A stretch of DNA of 64,000 nt from Alphaproteobacteria bacterium UBA1254 (GCA_002308495.1 DBVW01000021.1:11338-75337); one strand, 5' to 3'. Positions 57,001-63,000 are shown, counted from the first letter of the stretch. Made by a program: the numbers.

Positions 57001-60000
57001 TCTGCCGGATGCAACAAACTCATTAAAGAAGGCGCTCTTTTAACGGAAAATGCCGATGATATTTTACAAACATTAGCGCTCACTCAAAACCGAACGTTAA
57101 AAACACATCAAAACGCAACGTTAAAATCAAAACCTCTTGACTTTGAAAAAAAACAAGTCAATATTGTGCCGAAACAAAAAAGCTCGGCGGACAGCAATAA
57201 AATTTTGCAAATCATCGGTGCGGCAGGTATTGAACAAGACGACTTAATACGCCATTTAAAGATGAAAGCAAATGATGTTATGGTCATCATTACCGAGCTT
57301 GAGCTTGAAGGGTTAATAACAAAGCAAAACTCGAGCTTTTTAAGTTTAACAAAAGAAGGTTTAAGGCTAGTAAAATGAAACTCGTTGTTGTAGAATCACC
57401 GGCAAAAGCAAAAACAATCAACAAATATCTTGGCTCTGATTACAAAGTTTTAGCAAGTTTCGGCCACATCCGTGACCTCCCTTCAAAAGACGGCTCCGTC
57501 AATCCGGATAAAGATTTTGACATGCTGTGGGAATTAAGCGCCGGCGGCAAAAAACGCTTAAACGACATCATCACGGCCCTAAAAGATGCCGACACTTTAA
57601 TTCTCGCATCCGACCCTGATAGAGAGGGAGAAGCCATTGCTTGGCACATTTTGGAAGAATTAACGGCGCGCAAAAAAATTCAAGGCAAAAAAATCGAACG
57701 TGTTGTTTTCCACGAAATCACAAAATCTGCCGTCACGGAAGCAATTAAAAATCCCCGTCAGATAGATGACAATCTCGTTTCCGCCTACATGGCCCGCCGC
57801 GCACTTGACTACCTCGTCGGATTCACATTGTCTCCTGTTTTGTGGCGCAAATTACCGGGCTCAAAATCTGCCGGTCGTGTTCAAAGTGTTGCTCTTCGTT
57901 TAATTTGCGATCGCGAAAATGAAATTGAAAAATTCAAACCTGAAGAATATTGGACGATTGACGTTGATTTACTCACAAAAGAAAAAGCCGTTATTCCGTC
58001 TCATTTAATCAATCTTGACGGCAAAAAACTCGAAAAATTCGACATCAACACCGAAGCCAAAGCTCTTGAAGCCAAAGCAAAAATTGAAGCTCAAGATTTT
58101 CATATATCCTTGGTTGAGCGTAAAAAAGCAAATCGCTATCCGGCCCCGCCGTTCACAACATCAACCTTACAGCAGGAAGCTGCAAGAAAACTTCGCTTTT
58201 CGGCTAAAAAGACGATGCAGATTGCTCAAAAGCTTTATGAAGACGGTTATATTACATATATGCGTACCGATGCCGTCAACTTGTCCGATGAAGCCATCAA
58301 AGCATGCCGCAGCGCCATTGAAAAATATTTTGGGGCGCCATATCTCCCGAAAGACCCGAAAATCTATAAAACAAAATCAAAAAATGCGCAGGAAGCTCAC
58401 GAAGCTATTCGTCCGTCAGATGTGATGAACACTCCCAAAAAGATGGAAACCAAACTCGATTCGGATGCTCATAAACTTTATGAACTGATTTGGAAACGCA
58501 CGGTTGCCTGCCAAATGTCACCGGCTGTTTTAGACCGTGTTACGATAGATTCTCTGTCAAAAGACGAGAAAATTCTGCTGCGTGCCAACGGTCAGGTTAT
58601 CGCTTTTGACGGCTTCTTAAAACTTTATCAAGAGTCAAAAGATGACAGCGCCGATGATGAAGACAATCGTATTTTGCCGAATGTTAATGAAGACGAGCAA
58701 GTCAAAAAAGGCGAAATCAAACCCGAACAACACATGACAACACCGCCGCCGCGCTTTACCGAAGCAAGCCTTGTTAAAAAGCTTGAAGAACTCGGCATCG
58801 GCCGTCCGTCGACATACGCTTCGATTATTGCCGTTTTGCAGGAAAGGAAGTATGTTAAAGTTGAAAAACTCCGCTTCATTCCTGAAGACAGAGGGCGCAT
58901 CGTTACCGTCTTTTTGGAAAACTATTTCAAAAAATACGTCGAATATGACTTCACCGCTCAACTTGAAGAATTTTTGGATGATGTTTCAAACGGGCAGATG
59001 GATTGGAAAAAACTCCTTTCGGGCTTTTGGGCAAAATTCATTAAAAATGTGGATTCCGTTGCGCCTTTAAAAGTCTCGGACGTTATTGAAAAAATAGATG
59101 AAGTCTTGTCTCATCACCTTTTCCCCGAAACAAAAGACGGCACTGATCCGCGTCTTTGCCCCGAATGTCATCAAGGTCATTTAAGCGTCAAACTCGGCAA
59201 ATTCGGTGCCTTTTTAGGCTGCTCGAATTACCCCGAATGCAAATATACAAAACCCTTAACCGATGTCAAAGACGAAGAAGAACAGGAAAATAACACACCG
59301 AAAGAACCTCGTCCCGAAGACAAACTGCTCGGCACTTATAAAACGCTTAACGTCTATCTAAAAAAAGGCCCATACGGCTTTTATGTTCAATGGGGTGATG
59401 ACGCAACGGCTTTAACAGAAAAGCCAAAACGCGTTGCTTTGCCGCGCAGCATCAAACCTGAAGACTTAACTTTTGACCAAGCTCAAACTTTAATTGATCT
59501 TCCGAAAGATTTAGGCGGCGGCATTGAGGTCAATTTGGGAAAATTCGGCCCCTACATCAAACAGGGTACAAAATCCCGCTCATTGACAGGCGATGACACA
59601 ATTTTCAACATCACAAAGAAGCGCGCCGAAGAACTCTTAAAAAATGCAAAAGAAAAGCCAGAGGCAACCGTCTTGGGCAAAAATCCGAAAACAAACGAAG
59701 ATATCGTTTTAGCAACGGGGCGTTACGGTCTATATCTTAAATGCGGCAAAACAAATTACGCTATTCCTCAAAAACAGCGCAAACCTGATTTAAGTTTAGA
59801 AGAAGCCTTAAAAATCATCAACGCAAAAAAATAGAGCCTTTCGGCTCTTTTTTTATATCCTTTGGAATAAAACTTATGACTAAAGATAATATTGCCTTAT
59901 TTTTAATTAAATATTAGTATATTAGATATTAGAGTATCTTGGTAGGTCTGCAATGAAAAACAAAAAGAAACATACTCTGCTAAAAGAAAATATCGGTCGT

Positions 60001-63000
60001 TCAATGATTGAAATTTTAGGCATTCTTGCCATTATTGCGGCCTTATCGACAGGTGCTTTGGTCAGCTATTCAAGAGCCATGCGCCGCTACCGTTTGAACG
60101 AGGTTATTCATCAAATCGCTTTAATGTCCACAAACATCCGTGCGTTTTACGCAAATGTCGATTCTTACGAAAGTTTTGATGTTGAAACCGCCATAAAATT
60201 CAACATGATTTCCGAAAAAATGTTGGGTCAGGACGAAAATTTGCTCAACCCGTATAAAGGGCGTATTAAAATCACACTTGATCAGGCTGTTCACGACGGT
60301 TTACCAAATACCGCCTTTGTCATTACCTACTATGATTTACCGACCGAAGCCTGCATAATGCTTGCGCAACGCGATTGGGCTTATGATGAAAAAGTCGGTT
60401 TGGTCGGCATTGCTGTCGGCGAAAACGGCGAAGAGCCGAATTATCCGAAACCCTTATCAGAAGTCTTTACGGTCAACAGAATGACAGCTCCGCTGAGCAT
60501 GACCGAAGCAGCAGAACATTGCTCCGGCGACGACCCGCTTCGTCCGCGAAGTTCTGTTGCTTGGAAATACTTCTAAAACCCACAAAAAAAGAGCCCGAAG
60601 GCTCTCTTTTTTTATTTTATATTCCTTTAAAAATACTTCCACGCGACCACACTGCGTGACGCGCTGGGGTCTTCGCCGGAGCAATGTTCTGCTGCCTCAG
60701 TCATTGTCAAAGGTCTTGTTTGTCTGTTAACCGTAAAATATTCCGAAGGTTTATGCGGAAAATCAGGCTCTCCGTCACCAGCACCGACCGAAACACCGAT
60801 TAAACCGATTTTTTCACCCAGCCCCCAGTCCATTGTTGACAATCCGACACAAGCTTCAACGGGCAAATCACGATAAGTAATCACAAAAGCGGTATGATCC
60901 GGACCGCCTTGAACAGCCTTATCAAGCGAAATACTAATTCTGCCTTTATAAGGATTCATCAAGGTCCCGTCAGCCCCTCTCATTCTTTGAGTAACCATAT
61001 TATAACGAGCGGCCGTATTTTCATCAAAACCTTCATAATCATCTGTTGTGCTGTAAAAACTGCGGATATTCGTCATCATCAGCGAAACTTGCGTAATTGT
61101 TTCGTTTAAGCGATGCCGGCGCATAGCTTTTGAATAACCGACAATCGAGCCCGACGTAATCACGGCGATAATCGCTAAAACGCCGAGCATCTCAATCATT
61201 GAACGTCCGAATTCATTTTCTTTCGTCATGGGGGCCTCTAAAACGGAATATCATCATCTAAATCAGTTGCCGGTGCGGAAGAAGGCGCTGCCGCATCCCA
61301 ACCCGAAGCCGACGCCGCAAACGGATCTTCTCCGGCAAACGAAGAATTTCCATCACCTTTTGCATCAAGCATAACGAGTGTTCCGGCATAATTTTGCAAA
61401 ACAACTTCCGTGGTGAATTTTTCCTGTCCGCTGTTATCTTCCCAACGTCTTGTCTGAAGCTGTCCTTCCAAATAAACTTTCGAACCTTTGTGCAAATAGC
61501 GCTCAGCCGTTTCGGCAAGTTGCGGATTAAAAATAACCACGCGATGCCACTCTGTCTTTTCCTTCATTTCGCCTGTTGCTTTATCGCGCCAACGATCAGA
61601 AGTCGCTAAGTTAAAATTCACAATCTTGGTTCCGCTCTGAGTGTTTGAAACTCTCGGATCGGCACCCAAATTACCGACCAAAATAACCTTATTAATGCTA
61701 CCTGCCATATTTTTCTTCCTTTTTATAAAATGTTATATTGGAATCACTATAACTTTAAGCGACTAATTTTTCAACCTTTTTTAATATTTCATTAACTGTT
61801 ATGCCGAAAAAGCCGTAAACATCATCACCTTTGCCCGATGCTCCGAAACAATTCATTCCGATTATTTCGTCGGCATATCTGTCCCAACCAAATGTTGAAG
61901 CAGCTTCTACAGCGAGTCGCGGAGCTTTTCCCAAAACTTGCTGGCGATAATCTTTGCTTTGCTCTTCAAAAAGCTCCATACACGGCATAGATACAACAGC
62001 AGCGTGAATACCTTTTTCTCTAAGCACCTTTTGTGCTTCAACACAAAGCATAACTTCCGAACCGGTTGCAATAAGCGTTACATCGCGCTTCCCTTCACAA
62101 TCAGAAATAACATAAGCGCCTTTCAAACTCAAATTTTCATCAATCGACGTTCTTAAAAGAGGCAGATTCTGACGCGACAAGGCCAAAATCGAAGGCCTTT
62201 TCTCGCTCGTCAGAGCAATTTCCCAAGCTTCGGCCGTTTCAATCACATCGCAAGGTCTGAACGTCAAAATATTCGGCATCGCCCGATATGAAGCCAAATG
62301 CTCGACAGGCTGATGTGTCGGACCGTCTTCACCCACACCGATAGAATCATGTGTCAAAACATAAATTTCGCGAAGCCCCATCAATGCGGCAAGCCTCATC
62401 GCCGGCCTCATATAATCCGAAAAAACAAAAAACGTTCCGCCATACGCAATCACACCGCCGTGGAGGACCATACCGTTCATAATCGCCCCCATCGCGTGTT
62501 CTCTGATACCGTATTTAATATTATTACCGTTAAAATCATGAGAATAAATCGTTTTCATATAGCTTGCAAAAGTCAGATTCGAAGCTGCCAAATCAGCCGA
62601 CCCGCCGACAATCTGAGGCACATTTTTAACAATTTCCTCCAAACACATCTGCGAAGCTTTTCTTGTGGCAACTTTCGTTTTTTCCTCTAAAGCTTTTGCT
62701 TTTAATTTCTTTAAATCGGCATCCCAATTTTGCGGCAAAACATCATGAATATAATCATCAAAAGATTTGCCTGCTTTCAAAGCTTCTTTTTTCCAGTTTT
62801 CATAGGCCTCTTTTGACCTTTCGCCGACCTTCCGCCATGCATTTAAAACATCTTGAGGAATTTCAAAAGGCGCATATTTCCAACCCAAATTTTCACGCAT
62901 CAACGCGGTTTCTTCCTCTCCTAAAGGCGAACCGTGACATTTTGACGTCCCGCATTTGTTCGGTGCGCCATATCCGATTGTTGTCTTACACGAAATAAGC

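What the first reader, a model, noticed from the sequence alone, without database searches (positions are those of the whole stretch)
59953..61229. Two convergent type IV prepilin paralogs orphaned ~29 kb from the assembly cluster, sharing a 23-bp inverted repeat around a common terminator
Both genes encode prepilins with the G|RSMIE processing site and D-region cysteines, but with non-canonical +1 Arg and leaders of 8-14 aa. They are wedged between topA and ssb, far from the assembly genes. The gene at the pilS position in the cluster (30401-30958) lacks Glu5, so these two are the likely major subunits. Because they are convergent, their conserved 3' ends form a perfect 23-bp inverted repeat (60508-60530 / 60673-60695). 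Their conserved 5' ends form a longer imperfect one. Homologous recombination between these could generate chimeric or inverted pilin alleles, a mechanism known from pilin inversion systems in other genera. dprA lies two genes upstream. That synteny with topA is widespread and is only weak support for a DNA-uptake role.
Basis: partly seen in the sequence, partly recalled or inferred. Interest (0 to 1): 0.6.

Follow-up and report, generated by a model that had tools for sequence, protein, structure and literature searches.

The report
Two convergent type IVb pilin genes
These are two intact paralogous genes for the building blocks of a type IVb pilus in an uncultured gut or rumen alphaproteobacterium, and the inverted repeat they share is leftover gene similarity, not a DNA-inversion switch.

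Summary
Here pilA1 means 59953-60576 (+) and pilA2 means 60627-61229 (-). They are convergent paralogs, 60% identical in protein and 63% in DNA. Both have a G|RSMIE prepilin site, Glu5 and two conserved cysteines. They share a bidirectional terminator and a perfect 23-bp inverted repeat.

Pfam, a PDB profile search and an AlphaFold model with Foldseek all place them among type IVb pilins (PilS, bundlin, TcpA, CofA). They belong to a family of about 4,900 proteins from uncultured gut and rumen Alphaproteobacteria. Arg+1 and Glu+5 were present in all 128 members checked.

In 16 loci of other genomes these pilins sit directly after the same R64-type assembly cluster, behind a conserved PilS-like gene that lacks the prepilin motif.

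The recombination idea is not supported:
- No invertase is nearby.
- All six assemblies that carry the pair are collinear.
- Orthology signal dominates (95 sites against 10 and 7).
- The 23-bp run is only mildly unusual (P about 0.006 to 0.035).

The rearrangement actually seen is different. Same-species strains have precisely deleted the pilA1 cassette between two terminator direct repeats. pilA2, which abuts ssb, is therefore the core pilin and pilA1 is an accessory one. This is a new member of a known kind, of modest interest.

The parts
59953..60576 (+). pilA1: type IVb prepilin, 207 aa. The leader is codons 1-15 (59953-59997), Arg+1 is at 59998-60000, and Glu+5 is present. It is the accessory, faster-evolving paralog.
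   Evidence: dN/dS against the ortholog is 0.047. It is absent from same-species strains L095-L097.
60627..61229 (-). pilA2: type IVb prepilin, 200 aa. The leader is codons 1-8 (61229-61206) and Arg+1 is at 61205-61203. It is the likely core major pilin.
   Evidence: AlphaFold pLDDT is 89.9. All 16 Foldseek PDB hits with E below 0.01 are type IVb pilins. dN/dS is 0.080. It is retained in every strain of the clade that has the pair.
60584..60613 (.). Shared bidirectional intrinsic terminator, AAAAAAAGAGCCCGAAGGCTCTCTTTTTTT. It is also the right-hand copy of the direct repeat that flanks the pilA1 cassette.
   Evidence: free energy -10.5 and -15.7 kcal/mol, z -3.8 and -3.5. It is conserved in L001 and L093.
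59824..59856 (.). topA terminator, AAAAAAATAGAGCCTTTCGGCTCTTTTTTTAT. It is the left-hand copy of the direct repeat, 759 bp from the right-hand copy.
   Evidence: (D6, D8, I3). The deletion junction in L095-L097 joins this terminator to the inter-pilin terminator.
59857..59952 (+). Conserved AT-rich upstream region of pilA1. It holds a promoter-like site (TTGGAA, 17-nt spacer, GATAAT, 59862-59890) and GGTAGG before the ATG.
   Evidence: It is conserved in L001 and L093 and partly in L005.
60508..60530 (.). Left arm of the perfect 23-bp inverted repeat (codons AAEHCSG of pilA1).
60673..60695 (.). Right arm of the perfect 23-bp inverted repeat (codons AAEHCSG of pilA2).
61238..61708 (-). ssb. Its stop codon lies 8 nt before the pilA2 ATG, with AGAGG as a ribosome-binding site and no terminator between. 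Co-transcription of ssb and pilA2 is inferred.
   Evidence: The same junction is present in L001.
30401..30958 (+). PilS-like protein with a pilin fold but no G-x4-E prepilin site. It is the last gene of the assembly cluster and is conserved in this position in relatives.
20653..30395 (+). R64-type type IVb pilus assembly cluster. In order: orf554 (a family with no Pfam match), a TcpQ-domain protein, PilN secretin, PilO (PF06864), orf539 (possibly PilP-like, judged by eye from its C-terminal sequence), PilQ ATPase and PilR platform protein.

Best explanation
pilA1 and pilA2 are two intact paralogous genes for type IVb (PilS/bundlin-class) prepilins, each with its own start codon. They belong to a lineage-specific family of uncultured gut and rumen Alphaproteobacteria.

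Inferred mechanism:
- A prepilin peptidase encoded elsewhere cuts after Gly(-1). This leaves Arg+1, Glu+5 and a hydrophobic alpha-1 helix.
- The mature subunits, about 192 aa with one C-terminal disulfide, are polymerised by the R64-thin-pilus-type machine at 20.6-31 kb. That machine is joined head-to-head to a VirB-type type IV secretion system (T4SS).
- pilA2 is the core major subunit. It sits 8 nt behind ssb and is probably co-transcribed with it.
- pilA1 is an accessory subunit that evolves faster. It has its own conserved promoter region in the ancestral position after topA.
- Both transcripts end at one bidirectional terminator.

The inverted repeats are residual sequence similarity between convergent paralogs, not recombination sites. 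The rearrangement that does occur at this locus is loss of the whole pilA1 cassette by recombination between the two terminator copies that flank it as direct repeats.

Shown: gene identity, fold class, family-wide motif, linkage of the family to this machine in other genomes, purifying selection, collinearity, and the deletion junction. Inferred: processing, assembly, which paralog is the major subunit, co-transcription, and the pilus function. The function is most likely cell contact or mating-pair stabilisation for the adjacent T4SS, by analogy with IncI plasmids.
For: Pilin class:
- Pfam PilS and Bundlin models match above their cut-offs.
- The PDB profile search is led by BfpA (E=4.6e-12); TcpA, S. 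Typhi PilS and CofA are also among the hits.
- The AlphaFold model has pLDDT 89.9, and all 16 Foldseek PDB hits with E below 0.01 are type IVb pilins.
- The nearest annotated plasmid homologs are E. coli 'type 4 pilus major pilin' genes at 24-28% identity, the one inspected lying in a type IVb cluster.

Family: 4,920 homologs. Arg+1 and Glu+5 occur in 128 of 128. Hosts are gut and rumen alphaproteobacterial genomes assembled from metagenomes.

Link to the machine: in 16 loci the order is orf539, PilQ, PilR, the motif-less PilS-like gene, then one to three G|RSM(I/V)E pilins.

The divergent T4SS / type IVb pilus supercluster is kept in species with orf554 homologs at 57% and 44% identity.

Both genes are functional: dN/dS is 0.047 and 0.080.

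Expression signals.

pilA1 is dispensable: L095, L096 and L097 have topA 98.5% and pilA2 97% identical to L001, and their junction is a hybrid of the two terminators.

The pilA1 position is ancestral: its upstream region is shared with L005, whose single pilin lies after topA.
Against: - No prepilin peptidase was found in the window or in about 865 kb of related loci. That search used only a motif regex, so processing is unproven.
- There are no expression data.
- Only 64 kb of the genome was seen, so other pilin paralogs or a second pilus machine could exist.
- pilA2's 8-aa leader, and the family median of 8, is shorter than the 13-30 aa said to typify type IVb pilins (PMC9045228).
- The neighbour-joining tree puts pilA1 outside the whole pilA2 clade. 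This may mean an older duplication rather than fast divergence.
- The T4SS beside the cluster is VirB-type, unlike the IncI plasmid transfer system (my recollection, not tested here), so the functional analogy is loose.
Confidence: 0.78

Rival explanations
1. One reading: homologous recombination between the 3' 23-bp repeat, or the 5' imperfect repeat, inverts the intervening DNA. This would create chimeric or swapped pilin alleles as a variation mechanism.
For: The repeats exist. The 23-bp run is somewhat longer than chance (P 0.006-0.035). The single pilin of L003 and L005 has the pilA1 position, orientation and upstream region but a pilA2-like body: 79% identical to pilA2 against 58% to pilA1. 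An ancient body swap could explain that pattern.
Against: - No invertase is present; the only tyrosine recombinase in the window is XerD.
- Six assemblies of two species are all collinear.
- The tails downstream of the repeat are orthologous within pilA1 and within pilA2 across species.
- Site counts are 95 orthology, 10 concerted and 7 other.
- 23 bp is about the minimum for RecA-dependent exchange (my knowledge, not tested here).
- Both genes are complete and do not need rearrangement to be expressed.
- The pattern in L003 and L005 is equally explained by asymmetric divergence after an inverted duplication.
Confidence: 0.06
2. Short non-crossover gene conversion tracts occasionally homogenise the two ends of the paralogs. 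This can be true alongside the main explanation.
For: - The 23-bp identity is specific to the window species. In L001 the same codons differ at synonymous sites, and its longest run is 17.
- Sites where the window pair is identical but the L001 pair is not cluster at 59983-60010 (8 against 0) and at 60490-60550 (10 against 2).
- Identical-codon fraction at identical residues is 0.53 in the window pair against 0.37 in the L001 pair.
Against: The numbers are small and the regions were examined after the fact. Both regions are also the most conserved at protein level. Total concerted sites (10) barely exceed the third topology (7).
Confidence: 0.25
3. The pair are pilins of a DNA-uptake (competence) pilus. 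The argument is their placement between dprA-topA and ssb.
For: The order dprA, topA, pilin, ssb is conserved in the window's subclade, and pilA2 abuts ssb.
Against: Family members in other lineages sit by ftsK, xseA, sspB and other unrelated genes, or in the assembly cluster itself. dprA-topA linkage is widespread regardless of pilins (general knowledge). The ssb looks like the housekeeping gene. No ComEA, ComEC or PilT was seen in the window. DNA-uptake pili known so far are type IVa or Com type, not type IVb (my knowledge).
Confidence: 0.08
4. They are subunits of a different system encoded elsewhere in the genome, such as type II secretion pseudopilins or another type IV pilus, and not of the cluster in this window.
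For: The genome outside the 64 kb is unseen, and the genes are unlinked from the cluster.
Against: NCBIfam pseudopilin and competence pilin models score far below their cut-offs. The fold and Pfam class are type IVb. In 16 loci of other genomes the family is physically joined to this same machine.
Confidence: 0.06

Closest known systems
R64 / IncI thin pilus and related PilL-V systems (S. Typhi SPI-7 pil, P. aeruginosa PAPI-1 pil2, Burkholderia Tfp7, TP114)
   Same: The major pilin is of the PilS Pfam class. The cluster has a TcpQ-domain protein, a PilN-family secretin, PilO of PF06864, a PilQ ATPase, a PilR platform protein and a gene in the pilS position, in the same order. It lies next to a T4SS. 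The lack of a peptidase in the cluster has precedent in PAPI-1 and Burkholderia (PMC3984277).
   Different: - The cluster is chromosomal, among housekeeping genes.
- The true prepilin genes are unlinked here.
- The pilS-position gene has lost the prepilin site.
- There is no PilV adhesin, shufflon, Rci, PilT or PilU.
- The adjacent T4SS is VirB-like, with duplicated VirB8 and VirB2.
- Identity to plasmid-encoded major pilins is only 24-28%.
- Arg+1 is invariant and leaders are short.
Bundlin (BfpA), TcpA and CofA type IVb major pilins
   Same: BfpA is the best sequence-profile match in the PDB, CofA, TcpA and S. Typhi PilS are the structural matches, and TcpA and CofA also appear among the profile hits. 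Size is similar, at about 190 aa mature, with a C-terminal disulfide.
   Different: The assembly machine is R64-type, not Bfp, Tcp or Cof type. The leader is 8-15 aa rather than about 13-30 aa. The +1 residue is Arg; I recall Leu or Met in those pilins.
Pilin DNA-inversion systems (R64 or TP114 shufflon with Rci; Moraxella tfpQ/tfpI with Piv)
   Same: Oppositely oriented pilin coding sequences share repeats.
   Different: Those systems use a dedicated site-specific recombinase and short defined sites. They swap 3' segments onto one constant expressed 5' part (PMC9045228). Here both genes are complete and each has its own start, no recombinase is adjacent, and no inverted form was found.

Membership tests
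Type IV prepilin (class III signal peptide) | Short basic leader ending in Gly(-1), Glu at +5, and a hydrophobic N-terminal helix of about 20 residues | tested here: met
   Direct reading of both proteins. G(-1), R(+1) and E(+5) are invariant in the alignment and present in 128 of 128 family members.
Type IV prepilin (class III signal peptide) | Cleavage and N-methylation by a prepilin peptidase (Peptidase_A24) | not testable with these tools
   No peptidase lies among the window ORFs scanned. A regex for the GxGDxK motif found none in 865 kb of related loci.
Type IVb pilin (Pfam PilS PF08805 / Bundlin PF05307) | Match to the family models above the curated cut-offs | tested here: met
   pilA1 scores 43 and 37.5 bits and pilA2 scores 50.1 and 44.9 bits, against cut-offs of 22 and 22.3.
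Type IVb pilin (Pfam PilS PF08805 / Bundlin PF05307) | Type IVb globular-domain fold | tested here: met
   The AlphaFold model has pLDDT 89.9. All 16 Foldseek PDB hits with E below 0.01 are CofA, S. Typhi PilS or TcpA.
Type IVb pilin (Pfam PilS PF08805 / Bundlin PF05307) | Large mature size (about 180-240 aa) and long leader (13-30 aa), as given in PMC9045228 | tested here: inconclusive
   Size is met, at 192 aa mature. The leader is 15 aa in pilA1 but 8 aa in pilA2, and the family median is 8.
R64-type thin pilus system | PilN-family secretin, PF06864 PilO, PilQ ATPase, PilR platform protein and TcpQ-domain lipoprotein in one cluster | tested here: met
   The secretin scores 287.6 bits on TIGR02520, essentially at the 287.65 cut-off.
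R64-type thin pilus system | PilV minor pilin or adhesin, with shufflon and Rci in IncI plasmids | tested here: not met
   The window has no further prepilin-motif ORF. orf554 and orf539 have no prepilin N-terminus. The only tyrosine recombinase is XerD.
Site-specific pilin inversion systems (shufflon; Piv) | Adjacent dedicated recombinase, alternative 3' segments sharing one expressed 5' part, and both orientations seen in populations | tested here: not met
   No recombinase is adjacent. Both genes are complete with their own starts. Six assemblies are collinear.
Type II secretion pseudopilin / competence pilin | Match to GspG-K, ComG or Ppd models | tested here: not met
   The best NCBIfam scores are 12-22 bits against cut-offs of 138-400.

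The most novel reading that the evidence does not exclude
The conserved chromosomal supercluster of a VirB-type T4SS set head-to-head with an R64-type type IVb pilus machine, fed by scattered Arg+1 pilin paralogs, could be a dedicated cell-contact and transfer apparatus of uncultured gut Alphaproteobacteria. On this reading, strains diversify the pilus surface by gaining and losing whole pilin cassettes, as in the terminator-to-terminator deletion of pilA1, and by occasional micro-conversion between paralogs. The invariant Arg+1 would mark a distinct mode of subunit packing or peptidase recognition.
Probability: 0.25. Interest if true: 0.5.

Novelty: new member of a known kind. Interest (0 to 1): 0.3.

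Why it matters
This gives a first functional reading of a very large, unnamed pilin family in gut and rumen Alphaproteobacteria that have never been cultured. About 4,900 database proteins belong to it, most of them unnamed or listed as 'hypothetical'.

It ties the family to an R64-type pilus machine that is fused to a T4SS. That suggests these organisms make contact-dependent pili of the kind that stabilise mating in the gut, as shown for the plasmid TP114 (PMC9045228).

It also shows that a tempting inverted repeat between convergent paralogs is not a switch. Strain variation at this locus comes instead from loss of a whole pilin cassette. None of this overturns current understanding of type IV pili.

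Tried and rejected
- **Shufflon- or Piv-like inversion.** Rejected. There is no recombinase, both genes are complete, and all assemblies are collinear.
- **Natural recombinants.** A scan of metagenome contigs for the 23-mer returned only the contig already seen, in the parental arrangement. This is uninformative beyond that.
- **Concerted evolution.** The four-sequence site test is dominated by orthology.
- **Decayed second pilin in single-gene relatives.** tblastn found no remnant in L003 or L005.
- **Prepilin peptidase.** It is not among the window ORFs scanned with Pfam, and a motif regex found none in the related loci. The regex is crude, so absence near pilin loci is only suggestive.
- **RNA genes.** Rfam and tRNA scans of the window found nothing.
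- **Literature.** Searches on RF32, Rs-D84 or CAG-239 together with pili or T4SS found no description of this system.
- **Timing of the duplication.** The neighbour-joining tree cannot separate an old duplication from long-branch attraction. No maximum-likelihood tool was available.
- **First structure job.** It was rerun with an allowed alignment.

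
Full report
**What is there.** The window has two convergent ORFs. I call them pilA1 (59953-60576, + strand, 207 aa) and pilA2 (60627-61229, - strand, 200 aa). 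They are 60% identical in protein and 62.8% in DNA.

Both begin with a short basic leader ending in Gly, followed by RSMIE and a hydrophobic helix. The leaders are MKNKKKHTLLKENIG|RSMIEILGILAIIA and MTKENEFG|RSMIEMLGVLAIIA. No other ORF in the 64 kb carries such a motif.

The only other exact match of 12 bp or more is 14 bp over the RSMIE codons.

Between the genes, AAAAAAAGAGCCCGAAGGCTCTCTTTTTTT folds as a terminator on both strands. Free energies are -10.5 and -15.7 kcal/mol, with z-scores of -3.8 and -3.5. The flanking genes are plsY, dprA and topA on one side and ssb and tkt on the other. The one small correction is that pilA1's leader is 15 residues, not 14.

**What the proteins are.** Three independent lines put them in the type IVb pilin class:
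- Both pass the Pfam PilS (PF08805) and Bundlin (PF05307) cut-offs.
- A family profile searched against PDB sequences finds BfpA bundlin first (E=4.6e-12); TcpA, S. Typhi PilS and CofA are also among the hits.
- An AlphaFold model of pilA2 built on a 72-sequence alignment is confident (pLDDT 89.9, pTM 0.82). All 16 Foldseek PDB matches with E below 0.01 are type IVb pilins.

NCBIfam pseudopilin and competence-pilin models score far below their thresholds. The nearest annotated plasmid genes are E. coli 'type 4 pilus major pilin' genes at 24-28% identity, and the one inspected lies inside a type IVb cluster.

**The family.** A protein search returns 4,920 homologs, and all 120 listed carry both Pfam domains. 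The source genomes are uncultured gut and rumen Alphaproteobacteria, with record names such as RUG, RGIG, UBA2903, 'Acetobacter sp. CAG:977' and 'Azospirillum sp.' UMGS. Many genomes carry several copies.
- Arg at +1 and Glu at +5 are present in 128 of 128 members with a recognisable site.
- The median leader is 8 residues and the median mature length is about 198.
- Two cysteines are conserved across the family: one is invariant and the other is present in at least 90% of the aligned sequences.

The 'non-canonical' Arg+1 is therefore a family signature, not a peculiarity of these two genes.

**Link to the assembly cluster.** Genes at 20653-30958 encode, in order:
- orf554, which has no Pfam match but 935 homologs
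- a TcpQ-domain protein
- a PilN-family secretin (TIGR02520, 287.6 bits against a cut-off of 287.65)
- PilO of PF06864
- orf539, whose C-terminal sequence looked PilP-like to me by eye (not tested with any model)
- a PilQ-type ATPase
- a PilR-type platform protein
- a PilS-like protein

This matches the R64 thin-pilus variant described in PMC3984277. The PilS-like protein (30401-30958) passes the PilS and Bundlin models but has no G-x4-E site.

The decisive evidence is comparative. In 16 of the fetched loci from other genomes the layout is orf539, PilQ, PilR, the motif-less PilS-like gene, and then one to three G|RSM(I/V)E pilins. In one of these loci (L079) the pilin lies convergent to the cluster, 878 bp away. 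The family is thus the cognate pilin of this machine, and the motif-less gene is a conserved component rather than a decayed pilin. The peptidase was not found. Clusters without their own peptidase have precedent in PAPI-1 and Burkholderia (PMC3984277).

**Wider context.** The pilus cluster is transcribed divergently from a VirB-type T4SS at 4182-20263. That system includes VirB9, two VirB8 copies, a 1,368-aa protein of unknown family that may be VirB6-like, VirB4 and three VirB2/TrbC paralogs. The head-to-head arrangement is preserved in species whose orf554 homologs are 57% and 44% identical. By analogy with IncI thin pili, which stabilise mating in liquid and in the gut (PMC9045228), the likeliest role is cell contact for the T4SS. 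This is inference only.

**Testing the recombination idea.**
1. The only tyrosine recombinase in the window is XerD, 19 kb away.
2. Both genes are complete. pilA1 has a conserved upstream region with a promoter-like site. pilA2's ATG lies 8 nt after the ssb stop, with a ribosome-binding site and no terminator between, and the same is true in a relative with 80% nucleotide identity in pilA2.
3. Six assemblies with the pair are all collinear. These are the window, L088, L001, L002, L093, and L091, which is the metagenome source contig of L088.
4. In a codon alignment of the window and L001 pairs, the tails beyond the repeat group by ortholog. Informative sites split as 95 for orthology, 10 for concerted evolution and 7 for the third topology.
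5. The 23-bp run has P=0.035 under column shuffling and P=0.006 under codon resampling.

The 23-bp identity is specific to the window species. In L001 the same codons differ at synonymous positions. Window-specific identities cluster weakly at both gene ends, 8 against 0 and 10 against 2. A short non-crossover conversion tract is therefore possible but unproven. Across the family, adjacent paralogs are tandem in 28 cases and convergent in 5, and 4 of those 5 are from this lineage. The convergent layout is a local accident of history.

**What does rearrange.** Three contigs (L095, L096, L097) come from the same species as L001 and L093. Their topA is 98.5% and their pilA2 97% identical to L001. 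All three lack pilA1, with the order tkt, ssb, pilA2 and then a convergent topA.

Their junction reads AATGAAAAAAAATAGAGCC|TTTCGGCTCTGTTTTTTTTG. The left half comes from the topA terminator. The loop and right half come from the inter-pilin terminator. This is a precise deletion of the promoter-plus-pilA1 cassette between two terminator copies acting as direct repeats. The window carries the same repeats at 59824-59856 and 60583-60615, 759 bp apart.

More distant relatives (L003, L005) have a single pilin after topA, on the topA strand. It shares pilA1's upstream sequence but has a pilA2-like body, and there is no remnant of a second gene. The simplest history has three steps:
1. The ancestor had a single gene after topA.
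2. An inverted duplication placed a copy behind ssb.
3. The original copy, pilA1, then diverged about twice as fast: dN to L005 is 0.357 for pilA1 against 0.175 for pilA2.

pilA1 later became dispensable in some strains. An ancient body swap cannot be excluded, because the neighbour-joining tree places pilA1 outside the pilA2 clade. Both genes remain under strong purifying selection, with dN/dS of 0.047 and 0.080.

**Verdict.** These are real type IVb pilin paralogs that most likely feed the R64-type machine 29 kb away. pilA2 is the core subunit and pilA1 an accessory one. The inverted repeats are a by-product of paralogy. This is a new member of a known kind with some family-level curiosities: invariant Arg+1, short leaders, a conserved motif-less PilS-like protein, and a conserved T4SS / type IVb pilus supercluster. 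Interest is modest.

Noticed in passing
window 4182-20263 (- strand): A VirB-type T4SS cluster with two VirB8 paralogs (5826-6563, 7109-7873), a 1,368-aa protein of unknown family that may be VirB6-like (7877-11983), VirB4 and VirB9. It also has three TrbC/VirB2-domain genes (18090-19400, 19420-19776, 19877-20263). The duplicated components recall the rvh systems of Rickettsiales (my recollection).
   Followed up: partly
window 1-4170 (- strand): An open reading frame of more than 1,390 codons runs off the window start, directly downstream of virB9. The opposite strand shows many short Pro/Ser/Thr-rich repeat ORFs, so this is probably a giant repetitive protein of the T4SS locus.
   Followed up: partly
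window 20264-20652, and L089 and L090 around 9436-10000: The T4SS and the type IVb pilus cluster are transcribed divergently from one intergenic region of about 400 bp. This head-to-head layout is conserved in species with orf554 homologs at 57% and 44% identity.
   Followed up: partly
window 30401-30958, and the first pilin-like gene after pilR in 16 related loci: A pilin-fold protein without any G-x4-E prepilin site is conserved as the last gene of the machine. It may be an uncleaved membrane-anchored primer or tip subunit. Its function is unknown.
   Followed up: partly
window 20653-22317 (orf554) and 25978-27597 (orf539): Two conserved cluster proteins have no Pfam or NCBIfam match. orf554 has 935 homologs, an acidic low-complexity middle and a conserved C-terminal domain. 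orf539 has a signal peptide, a Pro-rich region, a coiled coil and a C-terminal end that looks PilP-like by eye.
   Followed up: partly
L005 6001-6135, L003 6001-6120, and P0008: The single pilins after topA in these relatives have predicted leaders of 36-45 residues with a good ribosome-binding site. That contrasts with 7-15 residues in most of the family, including the window's pair.
   Followed up: no
L005 6715-7153: The 440-bp gap between the pilin and ssb holds two or three copies of a repeated element with internal inverted repeats (for example GGAGTGTACATTTTGGTACATGAC). Its nature is unknown.
   Followed up: no
L003 6763-7551, L006 7477-8607, L089 20357-21027: LRR_5-domain proteins recur beside pilin genes or the pilus cluster in relatives. 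They could be adhesin or partner proteins.
   Followed up: no
L038 3655-5588, L063 4239-5558: Some relatives carry tandem arrays of two or three pilins that are near-identical over the N-terminal ~75 residues displayed, directly after the cluster, consistent with recent tandem amplification.
   Followed up: no
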